A stretch of 64,000 nt of DNA from IMG/VR virus record IMGVR_UViG_3300045996_002451, positions 147,172 through 211,171 of that record; one strand, written 5' to 3'. Of this stretch, positions 3,366 through 18,434 are shown in pieces. Each line of letters starts with the position of its first letter. Position 1 is the first letter of the stretch. The notes beneath the pieces were generated by a model. That model was not told the origin of the DNA, searched no databases, and worked only from the letters and a program-made list of their open reading frames with translations. The DNA is from a virus (Duplodnaviria; Heunggongvirae; Uroviricota; Caudoviricetes). A program made the translations under genes and the position numbers.

Positions 3366-3753
3366 ACTGGTGGACCTGTTTAGTGACGATCAGGGCGAGA
3401 TCTTTGTCGGCCACAACGGTGACCTGCAGATCGCCCGCGATGACGAAGTGCTGGTGCAGGAAGTCGTGATGCGTCTGAAGACCACGAAAGGGGACTGGCA
3501 GCTTGTCCCTGAGTGCGGGGCCGACCTGGAGCTGTTGATCGGTGAGCCGCAACTGCCCCAGACCGGGGCCATGATGGAGAACCAGATCTCCGAAGCCCTG
3601 ACCAACGACGGCTTCTTCAGCGGTCGGCTGGTCCGGGTCAAAGCGGTACCCATCAACTGGCAGCAACTAAAGGGTATCGTTGAACTGGAAGGCATCGACA
3701 GTGACTTTGGGGTAGCGATGGACCTCGACCTCAAAGAGGGTGTCTTGGGGTAG
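3355..3753 (+). CDS. Baseplate wedge protein, gp25 / GPW family.
   Basis: 'KGDWQLVPECGADLELLIGE' matches the conserved RxGxxxxxPEFGxxL core of T4 gp25 / Mu gp46. Size is 132 aa. It overlaps the upstream gene. Confidence 0.65.
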   Translation: MASELVDLFSDDQGEIFVGHNGDLQIARDDEVLVQEVVMRLKTTKGDWQLVPECGADLELLIGEPQLPQTGAMMENQISEALTNDGFFSGRLVRVKAVPINWQQLKGIVELEGIDSDFGVAMDLDLKEGVLG

Positions 3754-3783: not shown

Positions 3784-4974
3784 GTGTTGTTAAAGTTTGA
3801 TCAGCCTTACCGGGACCTGCGCGTCCTGGGTCTCATTGCCGACATGGCTGCCTGCGGTTACTACCGCATGGAGTATCCGTTTGAGTTCTTACGCCGGGGT
3901 GGGGCCAAGGCCGACACCACCGGTGCCGTCAATCTCCCCCTGCTGCAGGAGTACGACATCATTGTGGTCCAGCGCAGCTACAGCCCGGAACTGTTCGGGA
4001 TGCTGCAAGAGGCCCGGCGCTTCGGTAAGACCGTCCTGTACGAGGTAGACGATTACCTGCACGGCGTGCACCCGCACAGTCCGGCCTACAAGACGTTCCG
4101 ACCCAACGGGATAAACGTGCACTGGGTCGATCAATGGCTGAAGGGATCAGCAGGTCTCCTGACCAGCACTCCGGAGCTGGCGGGCGCCTACGGGCCGCTG
4201 GTGCCGCGTACGTGGGTGCTGCCGAACAACCTCGACTTCGGGATCCGCAACTGGGATCGACCGGCCAGTCGAGATCCGCGGCTGGAAGGCAAGCTGGTGA
4301 TCGGGTGGGCCGGATCCTCGTTTCACCCGGACGACATGTTGCCGCTTCAAGGAAGCCTGAAGAAGGTTCTGGAAAAGTATGGATCGCGGGTGGTGTTTGC
4401 CATCGCCTCCGGTCCGGCGCAGGTACGGCAGTTCCTGCAGCCGCTGAACCTTCCGTCCGAGCAGGTTGTCATCCTGGACCCCGTCCACTTCTGGGACTAC
4501 CCCCAACTCCTTTCCCAGTTTGATATCGGACTTGCCCCGCTTTCCAATACACTCTTCAACCGGTGCAAGTCCGAGCTGAAGCTGCTGGAATACGGCGCTT
4601 GGGGTATCCCGTATGTAGCCTCCAAGGTTGCGCCGTATAACCGCTTCCATCTGGCTAGCGGCGGACACGGAGGTTACCTGGCGACCAACACCCAGGAATG
4701 GGAAGCCGCGCTGGGTGCCCTCGTAGAGGATCCCAACAACTGGGGTGACCGGCACCTGTTCATCAAGGACTACGTCCGGGATCAGCACGACCTGGCGAAA
4801 GCCGCCTACCTGTGGGCAGGTTCGCTGCGTCAAGCGCGCGATCTGGCGCAGTACCAACCCGAGTTACGGTTGACCCCTGCAACGGCGGGTGCGCGCACCC
4901 CCGGCAGGAATGATCGCTGTCCCTGCGAAAGTGGGAACAAGTACAAGAAATGTTGTAGTCCAGCTTACGGATAG
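3784..4974 (+). CDS. GT-B-fold glycosyltransferase (GT4-like) with a C-terminal SEC-C zinc-binding motif.
   Basis: 'ELKLLEYGAWGIPYVAS' is an E-x7-E-type GT4 motif. The C-terminus 'CPCESGNKYKKCC' matches the SecA C-terminal metal-binding (SEC-C) motif. GTG start. Confidence 0.65.
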   Translation: MLLKFDQPYRDLRVLGLIADMAACGYYRMEYPFEFLRRGGAKADTTGAVNLPLLQEYDIIVVQRSYSPELFGMLQEARRFGKTVLYEVDDYLHGVHPHSPAYKTFRPNGINVHWVDQWLKGSAGLLTSTPELAGAYGPLVPRTWVLPNNLDFGIRNWDRPASRDPRLEGKLVIGWAGSSFHPDDMLPLQGSLKKVLEKYGSRVVFAIASGPAQVRQFLQPLNLPSEQVVILDPVHFWDYPQLLSQFDIGLAPLSNTLFNRCKSELKLLEYGAWGIPYVASKVAPYNRFHLASGGHGGYLATNTQEWEAALGALVEDPNNWGDRHLFIKDYVRDQHDLAKAAYLWAGSLRQARDLAQYQPELRLTPATAGARTPGRNDRCPCESGNKYKKCCSPAYG

Positions 4975-4982
4975 GAGTTGTC

Positions 4983-5543
4983 ATGAACCGCAGAAAGTTT
5001 TTTACCGGCCTGGGGTTAGCAGGTACTGGCTCACTCTTACCACCCATCGAGGAGCATCCCTCGGAACTGGTCCGGATCGACCAACCATACTTCGACCAGG
5101 ACGGTCGGGAACAGCTCCCGCTGTACTCTACCTGGAGACTGAGCGCGTTGGCTGTTGCCACCTTGGTCAAAGAAAACGGTCAGGTGGTCGGAAAACTGCA
5201 GGAGATCCAGATCAACTGTTACCGGAAAGTCGAACGCCTTAAGTTCAAAGGTGAAGTTGTTTACCGGTACGGTCCCCGGATCTATCAAGGTGTGTTGACG
5301 CCCTCCACGTTTTCTCCGTGGAGTTGGAACAGCACGCTGCAGCACGAAGTTCTCCACCTAGAAGTCAAAGCGTTGGCAACTAAAAAGTTAGAACGCCCAG
5401 ACTTCCAGATGCGCAATCTACGCATCGAAAGCTCAGATCTCATTAAGTACATGGTCTTTGAAGCTGAGGGTGTCGGTCTTAACTCGCTCAGCGCCTACTG
5501 GCAATACAACCAGTACGTGGACATCGACGGACCTCGTTTTTAA
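4983..5543 (+). CDS. Hypothetical protein with a twin-arginine (Tat)-like signal peptide.
   Basis: The N-terminus 'MNRRKFFTGLGLAGTGSLL' has the RRxFF Tat consensus followed by a hydrophobic h-region. Confidence 0.5.
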   Translation: MNRRKFFTGLGLAGTGSLLPPIEEHPSELVRIDQPYFDQDGREQLPLYSTWRLSALAVATLVKENGQVVGKLQEIQINCYRKVERLKFKGEVVYRYGPRIYQGVLTPSTFSPWSWNSTLQHEVLHLEVKALATKKLERPDFQMRNLRIESSDLIKYMVFEAEGVGLNSLSAYWQYNQYVDIDGPRF

Positions 5544-5548
5544 CTCAT

Positions 5549-5572
5549 GGGGTGTTACACGTGTAACACCCC
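5549..5572. promoter_or_regulatory. 24-bp perfect palindrome GGGGTGTTACACGTGTAACACCCC, the symmetric form of motif A.
   Basis: Intergenic, between the Tat-signal gene and baseplate J. Confidence 0.5.
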
Positions 5573-5584
5573 AACCTTACCACC

Positions 5585-6685
5585 ATGCTTATCCCTCCTA
5601 CCCAAGAAGAACTCTTCGCGCGTTTCCGCAGCGCCATGGAAGCCGTCGGTCTGACGCACTGGAGCCAGGGTAGCCGCATCGGTGCCATGGGTCGAGTGCA
5701 GGCCGCATACGTAGAAGAACTGTGGCAAAGTTTAGCCCAGACCGAAAGTAATCTGAACCCCTCTACCGCCCGCGGTCTGTACCTGGATCGTATGGGTAAC
5801 CAGTTCGGGGTCAAGCGGCTCGGCGCCTTAACGGCGGGCACGCTCGGCCAAGGACCTTCGGTGCAGTTCACCAACAACGGGGGAACACAGCTCACCGTAC
5901 CAGGAGGCACGCGTGTCTGGAGCACCCAGTCTCCGGAACTCGCCTTCTTCACCGTGCAAGATCTGACCTTGAGCGGGGGCGCACAGGGGTTCGTGGACGT
6001 GATGGCGGGAGCGGCAGGCGACCTGCACAACGTCGGTGCCAACACCCTGAACGCCCACAACGCCGGGATGAATCAGCTTACGGTCGTGAACGTGCGCCCG
6101 ATTGGTGGGGGCACCTTGCCGGAGAGCGACGCCAGCTACCGGTTCCGCATCAGCCAGGCGATGATGTCTCGCAGCGGTCAGACTTCGATCGCTTTGCAGC
6201 AGGCACTGCTCAAGTTGCCGGGCGTGCGGGAAGTCCTGATTCGTTCGGGAGCGCGGGGCAGCGGTACGCTGGACGTGATCCTGGTGCCGATCGACCGGGT
6301 GCCCTCCCAGGCTTTGTTGAGCGCGGCAGAGCAAGAAGTTGACCTGAACGTTGCCGCGGGGATCTCCTGGCGACTACTCACCCCGATCGTACGCCGCGTG
6401 GACCTCGACATCCAGCTTCAGATGAAGAGCGGGACAACCGTAGCCAGCGTCAAGGCGGCTGTAGACGGAGCGGCCCGTGCCTACATGGATAACCTCCGCG
6501 TAGATGACGGACTGGGCGGCAGCACCTTGATCTACAACGAGTTGATCTCCCGGATCATGGATGCGCACATCGATATCCTGGACGTCTCGGTTTCCCTCAG
6601 CCTGGACGGAGAGCGGACCTTGCAGACCAACATCCCCACCCGCGCGGGTGAGCGGTTGGTGTCCGGGTCTATCGGGATCAACTAA
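5585..6685 (+). CDS. Baseplate J-like protein (Mu gp47 / P2 gpJ family).
   Basis: 366 aa. Gene order is gp25-like ... J-like ... fibre genes. Composition is typical of Baseplate_J proteins. The call rests mainly on position and size. Confidence 0.5.
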   Translation: MLIPPTQEELFARFRSAMEAVGLTHWSQGSRIGAMGRVQAAYVEELWQSLAQTESNLNPSTARGLYLDRMGNQFGVKRLGALTAGTLGQGPSVQFTNNGGTQLTVPGGTRVWSTQSPELAFFTVQDLTLSGGAQGFVDVMAGAAGDLHNVGANTLNAHNAGMNQLTVVNVRPIGGGTLPESDASYRFRISQAMMSRSGQTSIALQQALLKLPGVREVLIRSGARGSGTLDVILVPIDRVPSQALLSAAEQEVDLNVAAGISWRLLTPIVRRVDLDIQLQMKSGTTVASVKAAVDGAARAYMDNLRVDDGLGGSTLIYNELISRIMDAHIDILDVSVSLSLDGERTLQTNIPTRAGERLVSGSIGIN

Positions 6686-7275
6686 TGCGTACGTTGTCGG
6701 AAGTGCTGGCAGATCCCGCGACCGTCACACGACTGGAAGCGGTCTGCCGAAAGCACCTCACCCATTTTCCAGAAGACCCCCGCAGTAGCTGTCTGTTCAT
6801 GTCCGCAGCCCTCCGGGAAAGCGGCACGAACGTCTCCCTCTTGTACCGGACCGACTACCTGGTTGCGGCTTTACGGCAGCAGGGTTGGGTGCAGATTCAT
6901 CCGGGTGAACTCGGAGACGTGTATGTACGTGGAGAGCAGGTAGGCCTGGTAGACCTGCAGACGGATCTGGAGGATCCTACGCTGCAGTGCTTCCGACTGC
7001 TCTCAGCACCTCTGCCGGAAAAGCCTTCCGGGGGTCCGGGCACCGAGTTGAAAAAGCGGTTGAGCCAGCTAGGTATTCACGTCACCCCTAACTGCTCGTG
7101 TAATCGTCGTGCTGCCTTGATGGATCAGAAAGGTCCGGACTGGTGTACGGAAAACCTGGACCTGATCGTGACGTGGTTGGGTGAAGAGGCGGCTCGCCGC
7201 CATCTCCTATTTGTTCCTTCTATCGCCAAGCTGTTGGTAAAACAGGCGATCCGCGCGAGTCGTCAGGCGCGTTAA
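6685..7275 (+). CDS. Hypothetical baseplate/tail protein, in the gpI-like position.
   Basis: ATGA overlap with the J-like gene. 196 aa. Immediately precedes the fibre genes. Confidence 0.4.
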   Translation: MRTLSEVLADPATVTRLEAVCRKHLTHFPEDPRSSCLFMSAALRESGTNVSLLYRTDYLVAALRQQGWVQIHPGELGDVYVRGEQVGLVDLQTDLEDPTLQCFRLLSAPLPEKPSGGPGTELKKRLSQLGIHVTPNCSCNRRAALMDQKGPDWCTENLDLIVTWLGEEAARRHLLFVPSIAKLLVKQAIRASRQAR

Positions 7276-7287
7276 CCAGCCCTTATT

Positions 7288-9870
7288 ATGGCAGTAACCT
7301 TTCTCGTTAGCCACGCCAGCACTCCTGCCTCCGGCGTCAGTGTGCGGCTTAGGGGCTCCGCTCCCGGCGTACCGGAAGAAGAATGGTATGACACTACCAT
7401 CGTCACCGGTGGGGACGGGTTAGCCGCGTTTTCCGGTGAGGAAGACTGGTCGTCCTGGCAAATGGACACCAGCAAGGCGTGCTACGCGCCTGCCACCTAC
7501 AACTACAACGCCGAGCAGTTGCACAACGTCGATCTGGTCAACGAGATCGGCTACCACGAAGTAGGGATCACCTGGGTGGGCGGCGGGGAGTGTGGCGAGG
7601 AGCCATGTGATCCGGGCGAGCAGCCGGGGCCGTGTTATGTGCTTTCCGAGGACGGGTGTAGCTGGGAACCTCCCGATACCGACTGCGCGGAAGGCGAAGA
7701 GTGGGACGAAGACGAGTGCGAGTGCGTTGCGATCGATCCGGATGAGTGTGCGCTCTCCTTAACGGTGCGCTCCCTGTCCACAGGTAACCCGGTCAGCGGG
7801 GCCCTGGTCACTTTCAGTGATGGTACCAGCGGCACTACCGACGCCAGTGGAGAGGTCACCTTCCCGGAGATGACCGCGGGCACGCTGACCTGGAACGTCA
7901 GCGGCACCAATTATTTACCGGTCTGGGACTCCGGCGAGTGCGGCGAGCACGAGACTTGGCTGCCGGATGATGACGAAACTGTCTCCGAGGTCTCCTACTG
8001 TTTCAGTGATCCCGACTGCGCAGGCTCTGCTGGACCCACGCCTACCGAGTGCTATCCCGCCATTACCAGCGTCCAGATCGTCGAGGATGCGGACGGTATT
8101 CCGCCGATCGATCAGAGTCATACCTACGACTCCACGCCCACGTTCGCCTGGACGGCAGACGGGGGTGTTGAGCCGTACCTGTATGTTTGGGAAGTCCGCA
8201 GCAGTGATGGCACTACCCTACTGGCCAGCGGTACGACGGTAGCCAATTTGGTGGAGCTGCCGGAACTAGACTACGACGAGTATCAGTTCCGCGTGCACGT
8301 CACCGACTCCGAAGGACACTGCTCACTCTGGACCGGGTTTGGTTTTGAGAGCACGGTGTTCGTCCCGGACGTGGTGATCGAGGAACCACCCGTCCTGGAA
8401 CCGGTGATCCCCCGCGCGCCGGAGCTGCTGCGCTACCTGCCCCGGTGGTACTCCGTCTACGGGGATGAAGAAAACCCCGGCACCGCAACCACGCTTTACC
8501 AATACTTCGAGCCTCAGCTCGTGGAGTGGGCCCGGTTTAACCGCAGCGTGGAGGAAGTGGCACAGAGCCTCTCCTTGTTGGAAGCGCCCGTAGCTCAACC
8601 CAGACTGGCCTGGACCCTGCACACCCGGATGGATGTGAACGCATCCTTCACGGTGAACGTCCGGCTGGACGGGGCGAGCGGTACGTTGAGCGGGGAGGTA
8701 CGTCGGGCAGAAAGCCTGTACGACTTCACCACGGCGTACGAACCGATCTATGTCCTGGACGAACAGGGCCGGATGGTGTTTCGCAACCTCTGCAGCCGCA
8801 TGCGTAGCATCACGCCGGACGGGGAAGACGTCTACCACTTGACCGGAGAAACCTCCGGGTTGGTGCGAGATGCGGACCTGACGGTGCTGAAAGACGGACT
8901 CTGGTACATCCTACCGGTAGACGGGGGCAGTGTGAACGTCTACACTGGCTCCTTGATGCTGCCTGCTACCTATAGTGGCGCCGCCACGATCCGCTACCTC
9001 TCCCGACGGTACCAAGAGACGGTTGAGGTCTCGGTAGCCGGAGAGCCATGGCAGACGCCGTATACCCTGGACCTATGGAACCGCTTTGACGAGCTGGGAC
9101 TGTTGATCGGGATCACGCGCCGCGCAGGGGAGGACAACGGACATTACCGGGAACGGTTGTATGCCCGCTGTCTGTCCAAGATCGGCACGGCGCAGGACTC
9201 CCTGGAGCAGCATGTCGCCGAGGATCTCTCCTTGGTTACGGTGCTGGAATGGGACGGCATCAGCACCTTGAATCTCGCAGCCTCCGGTCACTGGGGGATC
9301 CAGGACATCTACATCCAGGACGTACCAGAACTGGGACACGCGGTGGAAGAGGAGTTGCTTCCTACCGGTACCGCGGGACTCTACAGCTCCCATAAGCGTA
9401 CGTGGCTGGAAGGTTATTACCTGCATGTGGATGGCCGCACCGCTACCACCCTCACGTATCCGGACCTGTCCGTCTCCGGAAACCTGGTGGACTTTGGGAC
9501 CGCGGTCCCTGGTCGGGTTTGGGCAAACTACCGTTACCGGAACTACACCTTGACCCGCAGCAGTCAGGACACCATCACCACGGTGACTCCGGTGTCCGGG
9601 AATCTACTTCCCGGAAGCTATCAGGTACTCCTGGTACGCGGGGTTGTCGCCCACACGCTGGACGAGCGTAACTTCATCAACACCGAGTTGTTGGACGGGG
9701 CAGGAAGACCTAATGGTTACTTCCGTCAACTCCGCGAAACCCTCCTGCAGGGCTCACCGGTGCACGTAGGACGTTCCGGTTGGAACGGCTCCTACTGGTT
9801 GGATCGGGAGGACGACCGACCCCAAGTCTCCTACTTACCGCTGGTCTTTGATCAGACGGGGGAGGAGTAA
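7288..9870 (+). CDS. Tail fibre protein 1, with a Cys/acidic-rich N-terminal region.
   Basis: 860 aa. The Cys-rich 'CGEEPCDPGEQPGPC...' segment is in the N-terminal part. The C-terminal ~450 aa are paralogous to the next gene (for example 'LDLWNRFDELGLLIGITRRAGEDNGHYRERLYA' and 'GRSGWNGSYWLDRE'). Confidence 0.55.
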   Translation: MAVTFLVSHASTPASGVSVRLRGSAPGVPEEEWYDTTIVTGGDGLAAFSGEEDWSSWQMDTSKACYAPATYNYNAEQLHNVDLVNEIGYHEVGITWVGGGECGEEPCDPGEQPGPCYVLSEDGCSWEPPDTDCAEGEEWDEDECECVAIDPDECALSLTVRSLSTGNPVSGALVTFSDGTSGTTDASGEVTFPEMTAGTLTWNVSGTNYLPVWDSGECGEHETWLPDDDETVSEVSYCFSDPDCAGSAGPTPTECYPAITSVQIVEDADGIPPIDQSHTYDSTPTFAWTADGGVEPYLYVWEVRSSDGTTLLASGTTVANLVELPELDYDEYQFRVHVTDSEGHCSLWTGFGFESTVFVPDVVIEEPPVLEPVIPRAPELLRYLPRWYSVYGDEENPGTATTLYQYFEPQLVEWARFNRSVEEVAQSLSLLEAPVAQPRLAWTLHTRMDVNASFTVNVRLDGASGTLSGEVRRAESLYDFTTAYEPIYVLDEQGRMVFRNLCSRMRSITPDGEDVYHLTGETSGLVRDADLTVLKDGLWYILPVDGGSVNVYTGSLMLPATYSGAATIRYLSRRYQETVEVSVAGEPWQTPYTLDLWNRFDELGLLIGITRRAGEDNGHYRERLYARCLSKIGTAQDSLEQHVAEDLSLVTVLEWDGISTLNLAASGHWGIQDIYIQDVPELGHAVEEELLPTGTAGLYSSHKRTWLEGYYLHVDGRTATTLTYPDLSVSGNLVDFGTAVPGRVWANYRYRNYTLTRSSQDTITTVTPVSGNLLPGSYQVLLVRGVVAHTLDERNFINTELLDGAGRPNGYFRQLRETLLQGSPVHVGRSGWNGSYWLDREDDRPQVSYLPLVFDQTGEE

Positions 9871-9875
9871 CGCTC

Positions 9876-11363
9876 ATGCCTACACCTAACTCAGAACGCG
9901 CTATCTATCGGCCTCAACCCTCCGGGGGCGAGCGTTACTTGCCCGGTTGGCACATTGCTCGCACGGATCCGGACAGCCTGGTTTACCGCCTGGTACACCA
10001 ACTGGTCGATGAGTGTGTCCCGCTCCGAGAAGAGCAGGCGCGCGCGTATCAGATGAACTGGTTGACCACCGCGCCCGTGGATGAGCCGCGAACGCAGTGG
10101 ACGTGCGTCTATCCGTTTGACCCGCAAGATGAACTGACCGTGACGGTGACGACCGCCGCCGATCTCGAGATCGAGGTGCGTGCCGCGCTGAGCGATCACG
10201 ACTTTGTGCGGGCGACCGATCCGGTCTGGAAGCTGGACACCCCGCAAGGGCGCCTGGTTTTTCGTAACCTGGCCACGGTGGAAAAGGAGCTGACCTCCGT
10301 CACCACCAGCTACACCGTAACCGGAGAAGCTTCGGGACTGGTCGCTGACGCTAATCTATACTGGCAGGGACAGACGGATGATCCCTGGCAAGTCCTATCG
10401 GCAGACAGTTCCTTGCGGGACGGGGTGACCTTTACCTTGCCGGTCACCGGCGTCATCTCGGTGCGTTACCAGTCCCAGGCACGCTACGCTGACCTGGTCT
10501 CGGGCACGGTGCTCTTAGAGCGTCGCAGCAGCCGCACGGTGCCGTTGCCGCTTACCGTGGAGCCGCTCCTGAACCTCTTCGATGGCTGGGGGTCGATCCT
10601 CGGGATCCCCCGCCTGCCGGATGAGGACAACGTCGCGTACAAAGCACGGCTGCTCGCGGAAGCGGAAGCGCCGCCTAACTCCACGGAGACAGGGGTGATT
10701 CGGGGCATCGCCTCGCGTCTGGGGTTGCTTTCGCGCACCTACTGGAACGGGATCGACGAACTCGAGTTCTCTGAAGAGGAGGTCACCGCGGTCCACCTGG
10801 TCGGTGTGGACATGTTCTTCGGGGTCACCGAGCAGCTTACGCCGGAGCCGCGGGAAAGCGTCACCGAACCGGTAGACACCTACTACGCGTCCTACACGGA
10901 CTGGCGGGAAGGGTGGTACGTCTATGTCGACGGCGTGCCCGCACAGGGCGTGACCGTTTCGGGTAACGTCGTTACACTAGGGGAAGAGACCAGTGGGGTG
11001 GTGACCGCGGCCTACACCGTCGCGCGGTACCAGTTGGAGCGCGACGCGGAAGATTACATCCTCAGCGTGCAGCCAGGTCAAGGCCTGCCGCCCGGTAACT
11101 ACGTGGTCCTTTACTCCCGCCAGGTCCTGGTCCATGGGCTGGGTGCGGAGACCGTGCAGGATGCGCTGCTCCTGACCGCAGCCGGGCTGCCGAATGAACT
11201 CTTCCTAGAGCTGCACCGTACCCTGGCGAGTGGGAGTACCACGTCGCTGGGAAGGGCGGGTTGGGAAACTGCGTATTGGTTTGCTTCCCCGGAAGAGACG
11301 CCGGGGACTACTCAGGTGGCGTTGCCGTTTGACGCGCACCTGACATTGGGTGATGATGAGTAA
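9876..11363 (+). CDS. Tail fibre protein 2, a paralogue of fibre 1.
   Basis: It shares blocks with fibre 1: 'LNLFDGWGSILGIPRLPDEDNVAYKARLLA', 'REGWYVYVDGVP...VSGNVVTLG' and 'GRAGWETAYWFASPEE'. Confidence 0.5.
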   Translation: MPTPNSERAIYRPQPSGGERYLPGWHIARTDPDSLVYRLVHQLVDECVPLREEQARAYQMNWLTTAPVDEPRTQWTCVYPFDPQDELTVTVTTAADLEIEVRAALSDHDFVRATDPVWKLDTPQGRLVFRNLATVEKELTSVTTSYTVTGEASGLVADANLYWQGQTDDPWQVLSADSSLRDGVTFTLPVTGVISVRYQSQARYADLVSGTVLLERRSSRTVPLPLTVEPLLNLFDGWGSILGIPRLPDEDNVAYKARLLAEAEAPPNSTETGVIRGIASRLGLLSRTYWNGIDELEFSEEEVTAVHLVGVDMFFGVTEQLTPEPRESVTEPVDTYYASYTDWREGWYVYVDGVPAQGVTVSGNVVTLGEETSGVVTAAYTVARYQLERDAEDYILSVQPGQGLPPGNYVVLYSRQVLVHGLGAETVQDALLLTAAGLPNELFLELHRTLASGSTTSLGRAGWETAYWFASPEETPGTTQVALPFDAHLTLGDDE

Positions 11364-14100
11364 CTACGCTTACAACTATAGCTACGGAACTCCCGTACTG
11401 GGTTCGCCTTCCCTAACCGGACCGGTCGCACCTGTGATGGAGCTGCAGGACGGAGAAGACCGCCTGCAGCTTTTTACGTTGCAGGGGGCGGAAAACTTTC
11501 TGCGCGCTTACGCCCAGCTTTCGGTACTGGAACAGGAAAGAAGGGTGACCTATTGGGTGCCACCCGAGCCCCGACCGACCACCCAAGCGTTAGGCGCCTA
11601 CCTCGGTGCGGACGTGCGTTACACGGGTAACGACTACACGCCGTGGATCCTGTCTCGCCCGCCCGATCCGGTATTGACCAAGGCAACTCGCTACGAAAGC
11701 TTCTACCTCCAGAACCACCTGGCGGTAGATGGGCACACCCAGCACTGGTATCCGGAGTATCCAGTACGCGACCTGCAGGAGCAGTTGCTTCGCGGGGTCA
11801 AGGGAACCCGCCCCAACGTACCCCTCCTGTATCTGGGCGGGGCCTTACCTGGAGGCACCGACGTGCCGCTGCATACCAACTGGTACCAGTATGCGGGGCA
11901 CTCCATGTATTGGAAGCTGCGTCCGGTGGTCGACCATCTTTCCGAAGCGACCGGTAGATTACTACGACAGATCGATCTCCAGCCCTGGAATGAGATGGAG
12001 CTGGAACCGCTCCTGTTTGACCCACTGGGTGAGTGGCAGATCCCGGAACTGATGGAGTGCTTGGCCTCGACCTCCACCGTTATCGGTCGACCGGGCCTGA
12101 CCACTCTCCTGGCTAGCATCCTCGGCAAACCGCTGCACCTTTACACGCCGGACAAGCTACGTATCGATTGGAACTTAGGTCCCCGGAAAGCGACGCAGTG
12201 GACGATTCCCTGGTCGAGTCTCGCTAAGTCGGACATTGACTTCTCATTCTACAACAACGTCTGGGGCGAGTTCCCGAAGCTGGTGGAGCCGAAGAACCGT
12301 CCCCTGCGCGTGGGCATCCTGACCCCGGCCATGCTGATTGGCGGCGTAGAGCAGTGGATCCTCTCCCTGGTCCAACACACAGATAGGCAGCGTCTCTCCT
12401 GGGAAGGCGTCGCCGTTCTTTATCCAGAAAACCTGGACACCCGGATGTCGGACCGCATCGAGCCGTACTGCCCGGTGGGTGTAGGCCTTGGTGAGGTTGC
12501 CCGGCTGTCCCGAAGTTGCGATGTCCTCCTGGCCTGGGGACTTCCGGAATGGTGGAACTTCCTACCTCCGGACCGTAAATGCCAGGTGGTCTACGTGAAC
12601 CACGGCGTGGGTGACTGGTCCACGGCTTCCTGTAAAGGCGCAAGCCATGCGAACGGCCTGGTAGCGGTCTCGACCGCATCCAAGGACTGCTTCCCGGTCA
12701 GCCACCGGTCCCGCGTCCAGGTGATCCCCAACGGAACCGACCGCAAGCGGCTGGAAACCAGCCAGACCAAGGAGTCGCAGAAGTGGGCCTGGGGGATCGC
12801 TCCGGATAAGAAGGTCCTGGGGTTCCTGGGACGCTTTGCGTATGAGAAGAACCCGGACCTCCTGGTCAGCGCTGTGGCCGCGCTGCCGGAAGACTGGGTC
12901 GGGGTGATGGTCGGCAGCGGCAGCCCGGAAGCCGAGTCCGGACTCAAGAGTCTGGCGGAGGCGTGCTGCCCGGGACGCATCTTCTTCCCCGGACCTACTG
13001 AGGACGTGGGCGGGGCGCTTACCGGGTTCGACGTCCTGCTCGTGCCTTCCCATGAAGAAGGCTTCTGTTACGTGGTGATCGAAGCCTGGTTGAACGGCAC
13101 GCCGGTGGTGGCGACTCCCACGGGGGTGGCTGCAGAAGAGGTCGGGCTGGTGGCGTACATTCAAGCCGACGCACTCGGTTATGAAGTAGCGGAAATCGTA
13201 GAGCAGACTTACTACGATAGCTGGCTGCCTGTCCTGCTGAAGGAAGGGGTGAGCACGGCTACTGAGAAATACAGTCAGACGGCGTTTGGTGCAAACTGGA
13301 CGAACTATCTTTGCAGCTTCCCAAAAATCGAGCGCCCGCAGGAGCAACTCTGGGATGTGCGTCAGTTGCCGTTGGAGTTGATTCCGGGTGTCCAGGTAGT
13401 CCTGGCCGCACACAACGCCGGTCCCTGGCTGCAGCGCTGCCTGGACTCCATCGAGGTCGCGATGGAAGGGCTGCACTGGGGACTCTTCCTGGCGGATGAC
13501 GCGAGCACCGACGACACCCTGGCGATCGCCAAGGCGCACCGCACCAGTGCGGACTACGTGCGCATCCAAAGCTTTGCTAAAGCCCGCACCACGGGGGAAG
13601 CCAAGAACCGCGCCCTCGCGCTGGGTGCCGACCTGCGGGAAACCCTTCCGGCAATCGTGCACATGGATGCCGATGACGTGATGATGCCAGGCCGCGTGCG
13701 CTTCTTGCTGGCGCAGGCAGTGCGCACCGGGAAGCCGTTGGTGCACGGCACGGTGCGTTTCCGTTCCGTACCGCCCCAAGGCGTGGCCCAGTTACTGGAA
13801 GTAGCCGGGGGTAACCGGGAACAGTACGAGGCAGCGAACTTAACGCCGTGTATTACCCTGCACCACGCGTGCCTGATCCCCGAAGACCACAAGCTCTTTT
13901 GTGAAGACCTGCGCGCCATCGAGGACGGCGAACTGTGGACCAGGCTCCGCCTCTCCGGCATCCAGAGTGTTCCTTGTCCGGGACCACTCTCCCATGATTA
14001 CTACCCGCACTGGAACAGCACGGCGTATAACCCGGAAACGGAAATAAACATCGAGCGCTACTATCGTCGACGCGCACTACTAAAGCAAGAGACCCTTTAG
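11350..14100 (+). CDS. Tri-domain glycosyltransferase: GT9-like, then GT4, then GT2.
   Basis: The N-terminal region 'VIGRPGLTTLLASILGKPLHLY' resembles the heptosyltransferase (GT9) C-half. The middle 'EGFCYVVIEAWLNGTPVVAT' is a GT4 E-x7-E motif. The C-terminal 'LADDASTDDT' and 'HMDADDVMMP' are GT2 DxD motifs. The start overlaps the fibre 2 stop within 'ATGATGATGAGTAA'. Confidence 0.7.
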   Translation: MMMSNYAYNYSYGTPVLGSPSLTGPVAPVMELQDGEDRLQLFTLQGAENFLRAYAQLSVLEQERRVTYWVPPEPRPTTQALGAYLGADVRYTGNDYTPWILSRPPDPVLTKATRYESFYLQNHLAVDGHTQHWYPEYPVRDLQEQLLRGVKGTRPNVPLLYLGGALPGGTDVPLHTNWYQYAGHSMYWKLRPVVDHLSEATGRLLRQIDLQPWNEMELEPLLFDPLGEWQIPELMECLASTSTVIGRPGLTTLLASILGKPLHLYTPDKLRIDWNLGPRKATQWTIPWSSLAKSDIDFSFYNNVWGEFPKLVEPKNRPLRVGILTPAMLIGGVEQWILSLVQHTDRQRLSWEGVAVLYPENLDTRMSDRIEPYCPVGVGLGEVARLSRSCDVLLAWGLPEWWNFLPPDRKCQVVYVNHGVGDWSTASCKGASHANGLVAVSTASKDCFPVSHRSRVQVIPNGTDRKRLETSQTKESQKWAWGIAPDKKVLGFLGRFAYEKNPDLLVSAVAALPEDWVGVMVGSGSPEAESGLKSLAEACCPGRIFFPGPTEDVGGALTGFDVLLVPSHEEGFCYVVIEAWLNGTPVVATPTGVAAEEVGLVAYIQADALGYEVAEIVEQTYYDSWLPVLLKEGVSTATEKYSQTAFGANWTNYLCSFPKIERPQEQLWDVRQLPLELIPGVQVVLAAHNAGPWLQRCLDSIEVAMEGLHWGLFLADDASTDDTLAIAKAHRTSADYVRIQSFAKARTTGEAKNRALALGADLRETLPAIVHMDADDVMMPGRVRFLLAQAVRTGKPLVHGTVRFRSVPPQGVAQLLEVAGGNREQYEAANLTPCITLHHACLIPEDHKLFCEDLRAIEDGELWTRLRLSGIQSVPCPGPLSHDYYPHWNSTAYNPETEINIERYYRRRALLKQETL

Positions 14101-14103
14101 GTG

Positions 14104-14112
14104 GGGTAACAT
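14104..14112 (+). promoter_or_regulatory. Motif C (GGGTAACAT), 2 nt before the GT2 ATG.
   Basis: GGGGTAACATTTATG. Confidence 0.4.
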
Positions 14113-14114
14113 TT

Positions 14115-14714
14115 ATGGAGTTCAGTATTCTAGTAGTTACGCACAACCACGCGCACTACCTGCAGCGCGCCTTGCGCTCGGTAGCCGCAGTGGCCAAGGA
14201 CAGTGCGTACGAGATCTTGGTGTGTGACGACGGCAGCACCGACCAGACGGCCAAGCTGGTCAAGCAACTGCGCGGTGCGCTGCCGCTGCGTTACTACGCA
14301 GACGATAAAGCTCCGACCATTGGGTTTGCTCGCAACCGCGCGCTCAAGCGGGCACGAGGTACGCACCTGATGTTCCTGGATGCGGACGACATGTTGCTAC
14401 CTGGTCACCTGACTGGGCTGCGCTCCGGAAAAAACCCGGTTACCTACGGAGAGGCAGAGGGACCCCCCTCGCACTTTCCGAAGTTGGGTACCTTGCTTTT
14501 TCGCCGGGAACTGTTTACCAAATCCGGACTGCGTTTTGATCCGCGGTTGAAATGTGGTGAGGACTGGGATCTCTGGCTGCGCCTGCAAGAGCGGCAGATC
14601 GCGACGCACCATGTGCCTCAACTGGTCTACCAGCATTTCGACGCCCCGGAAGCGTTGTCGCAGCAGTACGATCGTGCTGCGTGGGAAGCGTATGTTTCCG
14701 CCCGGCGTCCCTAG
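14115..14714 (+). CDS. GT2-family (GT-A fold) glycosyltransferase.
   Basis: 'ILVVTHNHAHYLQRALRSV', 'ILVCDDGSTDQT' and 'FLDADDMLLPGHL' are canonical GT2 motifs. Confidence 0.7.
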   Translation: MEFSILVVTHNHAHYLQRALRSVAAVAKDSAYEILVCDDGSTDQTAKLVKQLRGALPLRYYADDKAPTIGFARNRALKRARGTHLMFLDADDMLLPGHLTGLRSGKNPVTYGEAEGPPSHFPKLGTLLFRRELFTKSGLRFDPRLKCGEDWDLWLRLQERQIATHHVPQLVYQHFDAPEALSQQYDRAAWEAYVSARRP

Positions 14715-14750: not shown

Positions 14751-16454
14751 ATGTTATTGTCACCCCTCGTTGGTATCGCCAGTTTTCAGTCGGGCGTAGG
14801 TGATCAGGACGACCTCAAAGTCCAGCTCCGTGAGGATCTGAACGGGGGTTGGTTTGTCCGGTTGCGGGAAGGCTTCTACTACATCGGGCACAATGAGAGC
14901 TATCTCTTTGCGCAGAAGGCGTATGCCGAGGACACGCCCGCCTCGACGACTGCGATTGAAACCATCACGGTTACCGGGTTCACCGAGGACCCGACCGAAC
15001 TGGGACCGATCCTCCTCCGCACCAGTACCGGCAAGTCGCTGACGCGCGTCAGCTCCCCTTTCCGCGCCTACCAAAACCTTACCTTCACTGTCTCCGGAGA
15101 CGTGGCGACTGCGCCGGTCTCCGGTTTTGTGGTTTCTGTGGTGTCCGACCCGGCCAGTGGGATCTACTTGCAGGTTCCCAGCCTGGCGGACATCCTCTCG
15201 GTCGAGGACTACGTCTTTGATCCGGTAGCCAACACCGTCAAGGTCAAGGACACCGATCCTCCCGAGCTGTTCGCAACCTGGCTGCGCCACGAAGTAACCG
15301 GCGACCAACTACTCCAGCATGAGATCGTACGCGTAGACCGGGATGGGTTTGTGCGGACCCAGTTGACCGCGGTCTCCATGGCAAGCGGCCTGGTGCCGAC
15401 GATTCGCAAACCCACGCCTACAGGCGCCATCGAGGTCGAGCCTACGGCAGCCTCGGGTAACGTCCTGACCTTACCGACGAACTCCGGCATCAGCTCCGGT
15501 GACCTGGTGGCTGTCGAGTACTACGCGCAAGGCACCTACAGTGCGGTCTACAGTGCCGGAACGTTGACGGTCAAGTACCTGGCGAAAGAGGCGGTCGAAC
15601 ATTATCTGGAGTGGGAAACCAAGAGCACCGGCTACTACGACACCAGCGAACTGCCGGAAAGTCACAACGACTACGTACAGTTGAACCCGCTGCTGGAGCG
15701 TCAAGAGCCGTGCTTCCTTTACCTGTGCGCCACCGATCTGGCCAAACCGGTCGGCACCCGCGTAACCGTTACCCTGGCGGAGCAGAACCCGGTCTGGAGC
15801 GCGGAGCGCCCGGAACCATGTCTGGTCCGCGTGCTGGTGGAGGACCCGGAGGGAACCCGGATCCCGAAGACCGCGGTGACCTTAACGGCTACCCTGGCAG
15901 GTAACCCGCTGGTCTCCCTGGTCGCGCACACGGACTGGCATGGGAAGGCCCTGTTCCAGGTCACGCCCAACGCCTCCGGCGCCCTGGTGCTGACCGCTAC
16001 CGCAGGCGCCGTTTCCGGTACGACCACCATTACCGTGCACGACCGGGCCGCGACCCAGGACAGCGACGAACTGCAGCTCGGCAAGCTGCTCCTGCATCTG
16101 GAGAAAACGCCGTACCGCGACAACCTGTACCGCGTCAGTGCCTACTACTGCCACCTGGACGGCCCCCCTTTCCAGCCCCACAGCACCGTCAGTTCTTCGG
16201 AACCCTGGCGAGGCTCAGTGCGTTTCACCACCCGTCAATCCACCCTCTACACCTTGCAAGGTAATAAGCTCGGCCCCTCAGGCGAAGCCCTGCTAGACGT
16301 GGATGCGGTAGCTACCCTCTTGATCCAGCCGAGTGCCGGAGATGTGTTGCGGGCCGAAATCTACAGCCCGGATGGCACGCGCCGTCGGGTAGCTCGTCCC
16401 CTCCGACTGGTGAGTGTGGACACGAACAGTGCTCCGACTTTGGAAGACGCGTAA
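14751..16454 (+). CDS. Tail fibre / structural protein with a probable bacterial Ig-like domain.
   Basis: 'VTLTATLAGNPLVSLVAHTDWHGKALFQVTPNASGALVLTATAGAVSGTTTITV' is Big-domain-like. Located within the fibre module. Confidence 0.45.
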   Translation: MLLSPLVGIASFQSGVGDQDDLKVQLREDLNGGWFVRLREGFYYIGHNESYLFAQKAYAEDTPASTTAIETITVTGFTEDPTELGPILLRTSTGKSLTRVSSPFRAYQNLTFTVSGDVATAPVSGFVVSVVSDPASGIYLQVPSLADILSVEDYVFDPVANTVKVKDTDPPELFATWLRHEVTGDQLLQHEIVRVDRDGFVRTQLTAVSMASGLVPTIRKPTPTGAIEVEPTAASGNVLTLPTNSGISSGDLVAVEYYAQGTYSAVYSAGTLTVKYLAKEAVEHYLEWETKSTGYYDTSELPESHNDYVQLNPLLERQEPCFLYLCATDLAKPVGTRVTVTLAEQNPVWSAERPEPCLVRVLVEDPEGTRIPKTAVTLTATLAGNPLVSLVAHTDWHGKALFQVTPNASGALVLTATAGAVSGTTTITVHDRAATQDSDELQLGKLLLHLEKTPYRDNLYRVSAYYCHLDGPPFQPHSTVSSSEPWRGSVRFTTRQSTLYTLQGNKLGPSGEALLDVDAVATLLIQPSAGDVLRAEIYSPDGTRRRVARPLRLVSVDTNSAPTLEDA

Positions 16455-16457
16455 CTC

Positions 16458-18425: not shown

Positions 18426-18434
18426 GGTTGCACC

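What the first reader, a model, noticed from the sequence alone, without database searches (positions are those of the whole stretch)
3784..14714. Three glycosyltransferase genes, five catalytic domains, embedded between baseplate and tail-fibre genes
A GT4-like enzyme sits between the gp25-like and J-like baseplate genes. A 916-aa fused GT9-like/GT4/GT2 enzyme and a separate GT2 enzyme sit directly between the paralogous fibre genes and the downstream fibres and tailspike. Sugar-modifying enzymes inside a virion structural operon are uncommon. They point to glycosylation of fibre or virion proteins, or to phage-directed remodelling of the host surface receptor (a seroconversion-like superinfection barrier). 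The lipid/Tat-type signals and the beta-helix depolymerase nearby fit a glycan-centred adsorption apparatus.
Basis: partly seen in the sequence, partly recalled or inferred. Interest (0 to 1): 0.85.

Follow-up and report, generated by a model that had tools for sequence, protein, structure and literature searches.

The report
Glycosyltransferases built into a jumbo-phage baseplate operon
Three intact sugar-transferring enzymes sit inside the tail-building operon of an uncultivated ~211-kb phage; one of them, which carries a SecA-type zinc tail, is a fixed part of the baseplate gene block in a whole phage lineage, but what any of the three glycosylates is still unknown.

Summary
There are three glycosyltransferase (GT) genes at the stated coordinates. 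Four catalytic domains pass Pfam thresholds and keep their catalytic motifs. The fifth, the "GT9-like" N-terminal domain of the 916-aa protein, is not confirmed. The window is part of a 211-kb metagenomic jumbo myophage with no cultured relative.

The new result is that the genes have two different histories.
- **GT-B (3784-4974).** This is a GT4-type enzyme ending in a SecA-like zinc motif. It lies between the gp25-like and J-like baseplate genes in all 13 lineage members examined (GC 35-70%). That includes 6 of 6 found through the J gene alone. It is absent from that slot in 55 more distant J-bearing phage contigs. It co-diverges with its neighbours. Two homologues carry an insert, in one of them a recognisable intein, at the conserved K|S motif.
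- **The 916-aa tri-domain enzyme and the 199-aa GT2.** These form a 3.4-kb accessory cassette. Only the closest relative shares it, and there the middle domain differs.

The most likely function is late cytoplasmic glycosylation of baseplate or fibre proteins (about 0.4). Remodelling of host surface glycans and DNA glycosylation remain open. Interest is moderate: a new variant of a known kind.

The parts
3355..3753 (+). gp25-like sheath-initiator baseplate gene. It is the upstream anchor of the conserved gp25 / GT-B / J block.
   Evidence: Pfam Sheath_initiator 25.7 bits (below its 32.9 cut-off) and PHROG baseplate wedge families. It is 38-60% identical to the gene in the same position in L010, L012-L015 and L017, which Pfam calls Sheath_initiator in several relatives.
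3784..4974 (+). GT-B: a 396-aa soluble GT-B fold (GT4-like) glycosyltransferase. It is a core gene of the baseplate module in this jumbo-phage lineage.
4906..4962 (+). C-terminal SecA-type metal-binding (SEC-C) motif of GT-B: RCPCESGNKYKKCCSPAYG.
   Evidence: Pfam SEC-C 27.7 bits. phmmer hits to the YchJ and SecA C-terminal peptides in the PDB. The tail is conserved in canonical or degenerate form across the family members inspected.
4983..5543 (+). 186-aa ORF with a Tat-like N-terminus (MNRRKFFTGLGLAGTGSLL). It occupies a variable slot between GT-B and J and is not part of the conserved block.
   Evidence: Sequence and hydropathy. No Pfam, PHROG, NCBIfam or PADLOC hit. GC 0.52 and GC3 0.63, against about 0.61 and 0.75 for the neighbours. 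No homologue in the relatives, whose slot holds other small genes.
5585..6685 (+). Baseplate J (gp6-like) wedge gene. It is the downstream anchor of the conserved block.
   Evidence: Pfam Baseplate_J 85 bits; phrog_6. It is 39-69% identical to the relatives' gene.
7288..11363 (+). Two paralogous conserved virion proteins (860 aa at 7288-9870 and 495 aa at 9876-11363). They form the upstream flank of the accessory GT cassette.
   Evidence: Both hit phrog_21059. Cross-hits show paralogy, and orthologues occur in all relatives.
11350..12273 (+). N-terminal domain (aa 1-308) of the 916-aa fused enzyme. Its nature is uncertain. It is at best a remote GT9-like GT-B half, and it lacks the GIGD motif of its homologues. 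It may bind the acceptor or act as a scaffold.
   Evidence: No Pfam hit at E<10. It is 41% identical to the N-terminus of the L010 814-aa protein. Remote homologues are P0131-P0133. hhalign to GT9 gives E 0.0019 and probability 14%, against 0.038 and 0.48 for the GT4 controls. The alignment shows GAEN in place of GIGD.
12274..13317 (+). Central GT4 (GT-B) domain (aa 309-656) of the fused enzyme. It is the swappable module.
   Evidence: Pfam Glycos_transf_1 71.4 bits. EX7E at 570-578. It is 32% identical over aa 309-656 to P0002 only. The L010 orthologue lacks it and has a different middle region with a weak GT2 signal.
13330..14100 (+). C-terminal GT2 (GT-A) domain (aa about 661-916) of the fused enzyme.
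   Evidence: Pfam Glycos_transf_2 51-54 bits. DD716 and DADD773. It is 42% identical to the C-terminus of the L010 814-aa protein.
14115..14714 (+). Stand-alone 199-aa GT2 (GT-A) enzyme. It is the second gene of the accessory cassette.
   Evidence: Pfam Glycos_transf_2 73.8 bits. DD38, DADD89 and ED149. No transmembrane segment. It is 52% identical to the 215-aa GT2 in the same position in L010.
14751..20126 (+). Downstream conserved tail or fibre proteins: a 567-aa Big_1 protein (14751-16454), a 655-aa protein (16458-18425) and a 563-aa beta-helix protein (18435-20126). They form the downstream flank of the cassette.
   Evidence: Pfam Big_1 at 29.8 bits (below its 34.9 cut-off) and Beta_helix at 66.5 bits, with NosD. 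In relatives without the cassette, the orthologue of 14751-16454 directly follows the orthologue of 9876-11363.

Best explanation
**Shown.** The region is part of the late, single-strand, tightly packed baseplate and tail operon of an uncultivated jumbo myophage of about 211 kb. It encodes three intact, soluble, cytoplasmic glycosyltransferases. They have two different evolutionary statuses.
1. The 396-aa GT4-like GT-B enzyme carries a SecA-type zinc tail. It is a vertically inherited core gene, fixed between the gp25-like and J-like baseplate genes. This holds throughout a lineage whose members span 35-70% GC.
2. The 916-aa enzyme (unknown domain, then GT4, then GT2) and the 199-aa GT2 form a 3.4-kb accessory cassette. 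It is inserted between two conserved tail genes. Only the nearest relative shares it, and there the middle domain has been exchanged.

**Inferred.** The enzymes are made together with the structural proteins. They use host nucleotide-sugars to glycosylate virion proteins in the cytoplasm, before or during assembly.
- The core GT-B would modify a conserved, phage-encoded baseplate or tail component.
- Its zinc tail may tether it to ribosomes or to a chaperone, as the SecA metal-binding domain does. This step is speculative.
- The cassette would build or extend a short, strain-variable glycan of up to three linkages on neighbouring tail or fibre proteins.
- The closest analogues are mycobacteriophage capsid and tail glycosylation, and the multi-domain GTs that glycosylate the chlorovirus capsid.
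For: **Real enzymes**
- Pfam scores lie above the cut-offs and the catalytic motifs are intact.
- Putative catalytic residues are invariant across 60 homologues.
- One homologue (P0058) carries a LAGLIDADG intein exactly at K262|S263. A second (P0097) has an insert of about 280 aa at the same place. This marks a conserved active-site motif in a gene under strong constraint.

**Operon membership**
- Gaps between genes are 8-40 nt, or the genes overlap, all on one strand.
- There is no excess of promoter-like or terminator-like sites.
- GC and codon use match the structural genes.

**Core status of GT-B**
- It lies between gp25 and J in L010/L011, L012, L013, L014, L015, L017 and L018.
- Its identity to relatives falls in step with gp25 and J: 62/60/69% down to 35/38/39%.
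- Control sampled through J alone: 6 of 6 loci with J identity of at least 32% have it, and 0 of 55 more distant loci do.
- The lineage spans GC 0.35-0.70. The hosts are therefore diverse, which favours a conserved phage-encoded acceptor over a host-specific glycan.

**Cassette**
- L010 has orthologues in the same position.
- The other relatives have the two flanking genes directly adjacent.

**Precedent**
- Phage GTs glycosylate mycobacteriophage capsids and tail tubes (Freeman 2023, as cited in PMC12619734 and PMC10877033).
- The SecA metal-binding domain binds SecB and ribosomes (PMC6620043; 10.1101/613315).
Against: - No acceptor has been identified and nothing here shows a glycoprotein.
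- GT-B family members also occur outside structural modules. Examples are next to DNA polymerase and Dam in a phage contig of about 44 kb (L019/L020), near a ThyX-like gene and an AAA/Cpn60 pair in a 370-kb contig (L016), and in GT clusters near replication genes in Phapecoctavirus and Arthrobacter phages. The fold and family are therefore not tied to baseplates.
- The slot between gp25 and J is plastic. It holds homing endonucleases, an Acb2/Tad1-like gene and the Tat-signal ORF. Position alone is weak functional evidence.
- The structural neighbours are GT4 enzymes that act on small molecules or lipid-linked sugars. Protein O-GTs rank lower.
- Only 64 of about 211 kb was visible.
Confidence: 0.4

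Rival explanations
1. **Host envelope glycan remodelling.** The soluble GT4 and GT2 enzymes act on lipid-linked or nascent host polysaccharide at the inner face of the membrane. This would alter the receptor glycan. Infected cells and their debris would then stop binding this phage or competing phages (a seroconversion-like barrier). Linkage to the fibre and tailspike genes would keep receptor specificity and receptor masking together.
For: - The best NCBIfam similarities are to exopolysaccharide, teichuronic acid, O-antigen and PglI-type enzymes, all below their cut-offs.
- The cassette is accessory, restricted to a sub-clade and domain-swapped, and it sits among tail and beta-helix genes. 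That is the pattern expected of a host-specific trait.
- GT clusters in jumbo phages have been interpreted this way (PMC7824862). Cyanophage GT sets have been as well (PMC12801897).
Against: - There is no membrane anchor, flippase, priming transferase or Gtr-type partner in 1-25 kb.
- The genes sit in what looks like a late structural operon with no promoter of their own.
- The core GT-B is conserved across phages of GC 0.35-0.70. That is hard to reconcile with a host-specific surface acceptor.
Confidence: 0.2
2. **DNA glycosylation.** The GTs add one to three sugars to a hydroxylated or hydroxymethylated pyrimidine in phage DNA to evade restriction. Known cases are T4, RB69, RL38JI and the metagenomic gene clusters of Pyle et al.
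For: - GT4-like GT-B and GT-A enzymes do glycosylate DNA, and such clusters are sometimes found next to structural genes (10.1101/2023.12.21.572611). RL38JI uses three successive GTs (PMC13326640).
- GT-B homologues lie beside DNA polymerase and Dam (L019) and near a long ThyX-like gene (L016).
- The window itself encodes dCTP deaminase, dCMP deaminase, CTP synthase and a 524-aa ThyX-like protein.
- The basic zinc tail could bind nucleic acid (inference).
- DNA is a host-independent acceptor, so this reading also fits conservation across diverse hosts.
Against: - None of the ORFs searched in the 64 kb (about 50 against Pfam and/or PHROGs) is a ThyA-family hydroxymethylase or hydroxylase, a TET/5mYOX enzyme, a C5-methyltransferase or a dNMP kinase. 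Smaller ORFs were not scanned. ThyX is a canonical dTMP synthase family.
- The GT genes are not in the nucleotide-metabolism block (31-60 kb). They are in the tail operon.
- The family median pI is 6.5, so it is not consistently basic.
Confidence: 0.15
3. **Other target, or virion-borne GT-B.** In one version, the core GT-B is itself a baseplate- or virion-associated protein. In another, it is a counter-defence or takeover enzyme that glycosylates a host protein, a signalling nucleotide or a small molecule. In that case its place in the baseplate block is a frozen accident of insertion into a permissive slot.
For: - The slot between gp25 and J collects unrelated accessory genes, including an Acb2/Tad1-hairpin gene in L013 and homing endonucleases in L017.
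- The closest structural neighbours act on small molecules: BshA, MshA, TreT and SPS.
- SEC-C tails also occur on defence-system E2-like proteins.
- In P0002 a homologous GT4 domain is fused behind a fibre-like CarboxypepD_reg region.
Against: - Thirteen of 13 lineage members keep the gene in place, and it co-diverges with the flanking genes. That argues against a dispensable insert.
- A virion-borne GT would have no nucleotide-sugar donor outside the cell.
- No GT domain hits any PADLOC model.
Confidence: 0.15

Closest known systems
Mycobacteriophage virion glycosylation (Che8, Corndog and Myrna type; Freeman et al. 2023, cited in PMC12619734 and PMC10877033)
   Same: Phage-encoded cytoplasmic GTs are proposed, and in that system shown, to decorate structural proteins. 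Several GTs act together.
   Different: In that system the acceptors are the C-termini of the capsid and tail-tube proteins of siphophages and myophages of actinobacteria. Here the GT genes are embedded in the baseplate and fibre block of a jumbo-phage lineage. One of them is a lineage-wide core gene with a SEC-C zinc tail. No glycoprotein has been demonstrated here.
Chlorovirus capsid-glycan GTs (PBCV-1 multi-domain A064R-type enzymes, from own knowledge; NY2A B736L, PDB 3oy2)
   Different: Those are eukaryotic giant viruses with a different domain make-up. No sequence-level homology to the 916-aa enzyme was detected.
Phage DNA glycosyltransferases (T4 alpha-GT and beta-GT; RB69, DLP3, HY126 and RL38JI 5hoC glycosylation; the gene clusters of Pyle et al.)
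   Same: These are GT-B and GT-A enzymes in phage genomes. Up to three successive GTs act together, and the clusters are sometimes next to structural genes.
   Different: They require a ThyA-homologue or a TET/5mYOX enzyme to supply the acceptor. None was found among the window ORFs searched. These enzymes are more distant structural neighbours than GT4 enzymes.
Lysogenic conversion GTs (GtrABC) and jumbo-phage or cyanophage surface-polysaccharide GT clusters (PMC7824862; PMC12801897)
   Same: They contain GT2 and GT4 enzymes of polysaccharide type, and the gene content varies between related phages.
   Different: Gtr systems have a membrane-anchored GtrB, a GtrA flippase and a polytopic GtrC. 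The cyanophage clusters carry nucleotide-sugar synthesis genes. None of these is in or beside this region.
SecA C-terminal metal-binding domain and the MBD proteins YchJ and YecA (PMC6620043; 10.1101/613315)
   Same: The CxCxSGxKYKxCC zinc or iron motif sits at the extreme C-terminus after a flexible linker (pLDDT drops at residues about 360-370).
   Different: Here it is attached to a glycosyltransferase encoded by a phage. Binding to SecB, ribosomes or anything else is untested.
GT4 retaining glycosyltransferases (BshA, MshA, PimA, TreT, SPS, WaaG)
   Different: Identity is 10-17%. GT-B lacks the canonical EX7E motif and has K262-S263-x5-E269 with a D89-D90/H181 set instead.

Membership tests
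GT4 / Glycos_transf_1 (central domain of the 916-aa protein) | Profile match above the Pfam gathering score | tested here: met
   PF00534 scores 71.4 bits against a 26.4 cut-off. PF13692 scores 67.8 bits against 27.
GT4 / Glycos_transf_1 (central domain of the 916-aa protein) | EX7E motif in the C-terminal Rossmann domain | tested here: met
   E570-x7-E578 lies within SHEEGFCYVVIEAW.
GT2 / Glycos_transf_2 (C-terminal domain of the 916-aa protein, and the 199-aa protein) | Profile match above the gathering score, plus DXD and upstream DD motifs | tested here: met
   PF00535 scores 51-54 bits and 73.8 bits against a 23.3 cut-off. The motifs are DD716 and DADD773 in the fused enzyme, and DD38, DADD89 and ED149 in the 199-aa protein.
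GT-B fold, GT4-like (396-aa protein) | Two-Rossmann GT-B fold and a profile match | tested here: met
GT-B fold, GT4-like (396-aa protein) | Canonical EX7E motif | tested here: not met
   There is no EX7E at the homologous place. The family has FNRxK-S-x5-E (K262, S263, E269) instead. It should be filed as GT4-like, not as a typical GT4.
SEC-C / SecA metal-binding domain | C-terminal CxC...C(C/H) motif matching PF02810 | tested here: met
   PF02810 scores 27.7 bits against 20.4, at residues 375-393. There are PDB hits to the YchJ-C and SecA peptides. Metal binding and partner binding cannot be tested with these tools.
GT9 heptosyltransferase-like (N-terminal domain of the 916-aa protein) | Match to PF01075 or to GT9 sequences | tested here: not met
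   No Pfam hit at E<10. A profile of five sequences finds no PDB sequence. hhalign to WaaF/C/Q/U gives probability 14% and E 0.0019. The remote homologue P0133 has only a 12.8-bit hit against a 22 cut-off.
GT9 heptosyltransferase-like (N-terminal domain of the 916-aa protein) | N-terminal G-D motif (invariant in E. coli WaaF/C/Q/U; the Asp is the catalytic residue by own knowledge) and the C-terminal D-S-G...H donor motif | tested here: not met
   The window protein has GAEN and L010 has GGLDQ where the remote homologues have GIGD. No member of the family has the D...H motif.
Gtr-type O-antigen conversion module | GtrB with C-terminal membrane helices, plus a GtrA flippase and a polytopic GtrC | tested here: not met
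   The maximum 19-residue hydropathy is 0.86, 1.53 and 0.94 for the three GTs. No polytopic membrane protein lies among the genes in 1-25 kb. The PHROG GtrB-like hits cover only the GT2 core, with E of about 1e-6.
Phage DNA-base glycosylation pathway | Co-encoded enzyme that makes the acceptor base (ThyA-type hydroxymethylase or hydroxylase, or C5-MT with 5mYOX/TET) and a dNMP kinase | tested here: inconclusive
   None was found among the window ORFs searched (about 50 against Pfam and/or PHROGs). Only ThyX, dCTP deaminase, dCMP deaminase and CTP synthase turned up. About 147 kb of the genome was not available.
Phage virion-glycosylation system (mycobacteriophage type) | Glycan demonstrably attached to a virion protein and dependent on the phage GTs | not testable with these tools
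   This needs virion mass spectrometry, or co-expression followed by MS.
Core gene of the baseplate module (this lineage) | Present in the same slot in relatives sampled independently of the gene itself, and co-diverging with its neighbours | tested here: met
   Among loci found through J, 6 of 6 with J identity of at least 32% have it, and 0 of 55 more distant ones do. Its identity to relatives tracks that of gp25 and J.

The most novel reading that the evidence does not exclude
A cosmopolitan lineage of uncultivated jumbo myophages (GC 35-70%) needs a dedicated glycosyltransferase as part of baseplate assembly. This GT4-like enzyme would be tethered by a SecA-type zinc tail to ribosomes or to a chaperone. 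It would glycosylate a conserved baseplate or tail protein as that protein is made. Sub-lineages would add swappable multi-domain GT cassettes that diversify the glycan on the adsorption apparatus. That would make obligatory, lineage-wide glycosylation of tail machinery a new feature of phage assembly.
Probability: 0.25. Interest if true: 0.75.

Novelty: new variant of a known kind. Interest (0 to 1): 0.55.

Why it matters
Phage GTs are usually treated as accessory genes for DNA protection or seroconversion. Here one GT is fixed inside the baseplate gene block of a whole jumbo-phage lineage. It stays there across very different host GC contents. Two homologues carry an insert, in one of them a recognisable intein, at its conserved motif. 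Together these suggest a conserved phage-intrinsic role, possibly glycosylation of the tail machinery.

If that is right, it would extend virion glycosylation beyond actinobacteriophages. It would offer a marker gene arrangement (gp25, GT-B, J) for the lineage. It would also provide a natural example of modular GT-domain swapping next to adsorption genes, which bears on host range, immune recognition and phage engineering.

The SEC-C tail on a GT is an untested handle for how the enzyme might be targeted.

Tried and rejected
**Searches for close relatives**
- Megablast of 3000-15000 against the phage collection found nothing. tblastn of the 916-aa and 1064-aa proteins found nothing either.
- IMG/VR scans with single proteins (the 916-aa protein, J, the 1064-aa protein) found no relative. 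The 396-aa protein found only distant or tail-only matches.

**N-terminal domain of the 916-aa protein**
- The word-index search found nothing.
- The single-sequence AF2 model was unusable (pLDDT 31.6).
- A profile search of the PDB found nothing.

**Look-ups and scans that gave little**
- The exact-sequence look-up of P0001 failed, so the rest of the 211-kb contig could not be reached.
- The metagenome scan with the GT2 alignment gave three uninformative distant hits.
- The genome scan gave one Armatimonadota-MAG contig with no baseplate context.
- afdb50 was unavailable.
- PADLOC hit only the SEC-C tail.
- NCBIfam hits were all far below their cut-offs.

**Ideas considered and dropped**
- I asked whether this is the 'moraphage' lineage, which has four core GT families (PMC12619734). 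I dropped this: those phages are predicted to infect Bacteroidota, and no sequence link was found.
- I asked whether the GTs are recent foreign cargo. This is rejected by GC and codon use equal to the flanks.
- I asked whether the cassette has its own promoter or terminator. There is no excess over shuffled sequence.
- I could not read Freeman 2023 directly, because it is not held.

Full report
**1. What is in the sequence**

The region lies in a run of co-oriented, tightly packed + strand genes. Pfam and PHROGs identify them as follows.

| Coordinates | Product |
|---|---|
| 15-1502 | C-terminal part of a giant SLT-type tail protein |
| 3355-3753 | gp25-like sheath initiator (Pfam 25.7 bits, below its 32.9 cut-off; PHROG baseplate families and orthology support it) |
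| 3784-4974 | 396-aa GT-B enzyme: Glyco_trans_1_4 33.8 bits, phrog_7162 E 4e-42, ending in a SEC-C zinc motif (27.7 bits) |
| 5585-6685 | Baseplate_J |
| 7288-9870, 9876-11363 | two paralogous virion proteins |
| 11350-14100 | 916-aa protein: Glycos_transf_1 at aa 474-598 (71.4 bits), Glycos_transf_2 at aa 683-809 (51.1 bits) |
| 14115-14714 | 199-aa Glycos_transf_2 protein (73.8 bits) |
| 14751-16454, 16458-18425, 18435-20126 | a Big_1 protein (29.8 bits, below its 34.9 cut-off), a 655-aa protein and a beta-helix protein |

- The catalytic motifs are intact: EX7E at 570-578, DADD at 773-776, and DD/DADD/ED in the small GT2.
- None of the three GTs has a hydrophobic segment that could span a membrane.
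- The window has about 59% GC and no tRNA genes.
- It is part of a 211,171-bp JGI contig.
- It has no near relative among 50,697 phage records or in IMG/VR.

**2. The fifth domain**

Residues 1-308 of the 916-aa protein were called GT9-like. The tests do not confirm this.
- Pfam gives nothing even at E<10.
- The word-index search gives nothing.
- A single-sequence AF2 model is unusable (pLDDT 31.6).
- Exhaustive phmmer over 1.8 billion representatives finds three remote homologues, P0131-P0133, at E 2e-5 to 9e-4.
- These are stand-alone proteins of about 357 aa, or a fusion to a zeta-toxin-type kinase. They carry a GIGD motif that resembles the G-D motif invariant in E. coli WaaF/C/Q/U.
- P0133 has a sub-threshold Glyco_transf_9 hit (12.8 bits).
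- hhalign of the five-sequence profile against E. coli WaaF/C/Q/U gives E 0.0019 and probability 14%, over 88 columns in register. The two GT4 control profiles give E 0.038 and 0.48.
- A profile search of PDB sequences finds nothing.
- The window protein has GAEN, and its closest orthologue has GGLDQ, where the homologues have GIGD.

I therefore count four supported catalytic domains. The fifth is of uncertain nature. It is perhaps a degenerate GT-B half that now binds the acceptor.

The conserved N-terminal extension in L010 suggests that the long ORF, starting at 11350-11356, is the real one, and not the ATG at 11437 used by the JGI gene call.

**3. Two different evolutionary statuses**

*How the relatives were found.* A search with the 396-aa protein found about 120 homologues, many on contigs of 210-538 kb.

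*GT-B is in the same slot in every lineage member found this way.*
- Context look-ups placed the gene between the gp25-like gene and Baseplate_J in L010/L011 (62% identity), L012 (47%), L013 (48%), L014 (39%), L015 (47%), L017 (35%) and L018 (52%).
- blastp shows that its identity to relatives falls in step with its neighbours. For GT-B/gp25/J the values are 62/60/69% in L010 and 35/38/39% in L017.

*Control for sampling bias.* That sample was found through the GT itself, so I ran a control.
- I scanned IMG/VR with an alignment of the J proteins, which gave 61 loci.
- I then asked which of these loci hold a GT-B homologue.
- All six loci with J identity of at least 32% do, again between gp25 and J (L026-L031, contigs of 100-217 kb).
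- None of the 55 more distant loci does. Wherever a gp25-like gene was detected in those, it lies within a few hundred bases upstream of J.

*What this means.* The gp25 / GT-B / J arrangement is a shared derived character of one jumbo-phage lineage. It was seen in 13 distinct phages, counting the window. Their GC ranges from 0.35 to 0.70, so their hosts are very diverse.

*The cassette is different.*
- The 916-aa and 199-aa genes have orthologues only in L010, as an 814-aa and a 215-aa protein in the same place.
- In L012, L013, L014, L015, L017, L018 and L026-L031 there is no homologue within the flanks. Where both flanking genes are visible, the orthologue of 9876-11363 is directly followed by the orthologue of 14751-16454.
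- The cassette is thus a 3.4-kb accessory insertion.

*The cassette is modular.*
- L010 shares the N-terminal domain (41% identity) and the C-terminal GT2 (42%), but not the central GT4.
- Its middle region has only a weak GT2 signal.
- The window's GT4 domain has a single detectable homologue, P0002. There it follows a fibre-like CarboxypepD_reg region on a different phage-like contig.

*Composition.* GC and codon use of all three GT genes match the structural genes. There is no excess of promoter-like or terminator-like sites.

**4. Is GT-B an enzyme?**

- Across 60 homologues, D89, D90, N148, H181, D247, P252, S263 and E269 are invariant. R28, R64 and K262 are nearly so.
- The AF2 model built on this alignment has pLDDT 94.4 and pTM 0.93.
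- The DNA enzymes score lower: T4 alpha-GT 20.9, T4 beta-GT 17.5 and the HY126 DNA-GT 17.1.
- The canonical EX7E motif is replaced by FNRxK-S-x5-E.
- One homologue, P0058, carries a LAGLIDADG intein exactly between K262 and S263, with S263 as the +1 residue. A second, P0097, has an insert of about 280 aa at the same place.
- By general knowledge, inteins home to conserved active-site motifs of genes that cannot easily be lost. This supports an active, constrained enzyme.
- The C-terminal CPCxSGxKYKKCC tail is kept in canonical or degenerate form across the family members inspected.
- In SecA this domain binds zinc or iron, SecB and ribosomes (PMC6620043; 10.1101/613315). What it binds here is unknown.

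**5. What the enzymes may do**

*Virion-protein glycosylation (about 0.4).* I rank this first, for four reasons.
- The genes sit in the tail operon.
- GT-B is a core gene that co-diverges with the baseplate genes.
- It is kept across phages of very different hosts, which favours a phage-encoded acceptor.
- There is precedent in mycobacteriophages (Freeman 2023, as cited in PMC12619734 and PMC10877033) and, from my own knowledge, in chloroviruses.

*Weaknesses of this reading.*
- No acceptor is known.
- GT-B family members also occur in replication or other contexts. Examples are L019/L020 beside DNA polymerase A and Dam, L016 near a ThyX-like gene, and the Phapecoctavirus and Arthrobacter phage GT clusters.
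- The gp25-to-J slot also collects unrelated genes: homing endonucleases, an Acb2/Tad1-like gene, and the Tat-signal ORF at 4983-5543.

*Host glycan remodelling (about 0.2).*
- It fits the accessory, domain-swapped cassette next to the tail and beta-helix genes.
- It has been proposed for jumbo phages (PMC7824862).
- There are no membrane or Gtr-type partners, and it does not fit the conserved GT-B.

*DNA glycosylation (about 0.15).*
- It is a genuine rival. GT4-like enzymes glycosylate DNA, three successive GTs are known in RL38JI, and such clusters can lie near structural genes (10.1101/2023.12.21.572611; PMC13326640).
- The window ORFs searched include only ThyX, dCTP deaminase, dCMP deaminase and CTP synthase, and no enzyme that makes an acceptor base. 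However, 147 kb of the genome was not seen.

*Residual class (about 0.15).* This covers a virion-borne GT-B or a takeover or counter-defence target.

**6. Verdict**

- The new finding is the split between a lineage-defining baseplate-module GT with a SecA-type tail and a modular accessory GT cassette.
- It is a new variant of a known kind, namely phage-encoded GTs associated with structural genes.
- Interest is moderate (0.55). It would be considerably higher if obligatory glycosylation of tail machinery were shown.

Noticed in passing
P0058 and P0097 (homologues of window 3784-4974); the insertion point corresponds to window codons K262|S263, about nt 4567-4572: One homologue of the baseplate-module GT (P0058, HYT46479.1) carries a LAGLIDADG intein exactly at the conserved FNRxK|S motif. 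A second (P0097) has an insert of about 280 aa at the same place. An intein in a phage glycosyltransferase is unusual, and it marks the motif as functionally critical.
   Followed up: partly
window 4983-5543: This 186-aa ORF has a twin-arginine-like N-terminus (MNRRKFFTGLGLAGTGSLL). It has no family hit and has low GC (0.52; GC3 0.63). It sits in the variable slot between GT-B and J. Relatives carry other small genes there, including an Acb2/Tad1-hairpin gene in L013 (11227-11454) and GIY-YIG homing endonucleases in L017.
   Followed up: partly
window 16458-18425 and 18435-20126, compared with L012 19557-21155: One gene in the relatives matches two adjacent window genes. Its aa 1-365 match the C-terminal part of the 655-aa protein, and its aa 379-531 match the last 155 aa of the beta-helix protein. 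The gene was apparently duplicated or split, and a Beta_helix/NosD domain was swapped in as the N-terminus.
   Followed up: partly
window 34911-35531, 40407-41303, 52858-54510 (-) and 57809-59383 (-): This is a set of nucleotide-metabolism genes: dCTP deaminase, dCMP deaminase, a full-length CTP synthase (phrog_28378, E 2e-143) and an unusually long (524 aa) ThyX-like protein. A similarly long Thy1 protein lies about 2 kb from a GT-B homologue in L016. The relevance to DNA modification is unknown.
   Followed up: partly
window 50860-51717 (-) and 51717-52640 (-): Two tandem SPFH/Band_7 paralogues (phrog_200) lie next to the CTP synthase gene.
   Followed up: no
window 11350-11437: The JGI gene call (P0001, 887 aa) starts at the ATG at 11437. 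However, the upstream 29 codons resemble the N-terminal extension of the L010 orthologue. The longer ORF, which overlaps the stop codon of the preceding gene, is therefore probably the real one.
   Followed up: partly
P0133 (remote homologue of the window 11350-12273 domain): Here the stand-alone GT9-like domain family is fused to a zeta-toxin/AAA_33 kinase domain. This hints at a sugar or nucleotide-sugar phosphorylation partner.
   Followed up: no
L006 5619-8468 (P0002): The only homologue of the window's central GT4 domain is fused behind a region of about 500 aa with a CarboxypepD_reg-like domain. It sits at the end of a block of large, putative tail proteins on a 71% GC phage-like contig, just before the replication genes.
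   Followed up: partly
L022 (Armatimonadota MAG contig JAFAZD010000348.1, 144 kb), 1873-10283: A GT-B homologue (35% identity) lies beside an ORF of about 1870 aa on the opposite strand that contains several GT2-like segments. No baseplate genes lie within 8 kb. The contig may be a mis-binned phage or a bacterial polysaccharide locus.
   Followed up: no
window 2110-2742 versus 2225-2890: These are overlapping ORFs. Synteny with L010 (a 203-aa gene before the orthologue of 2739-3365) suggests that 2110-2742 is the real gene. The S/T-rich 2225-2890 frame is probably spurious.
   Followed up: no
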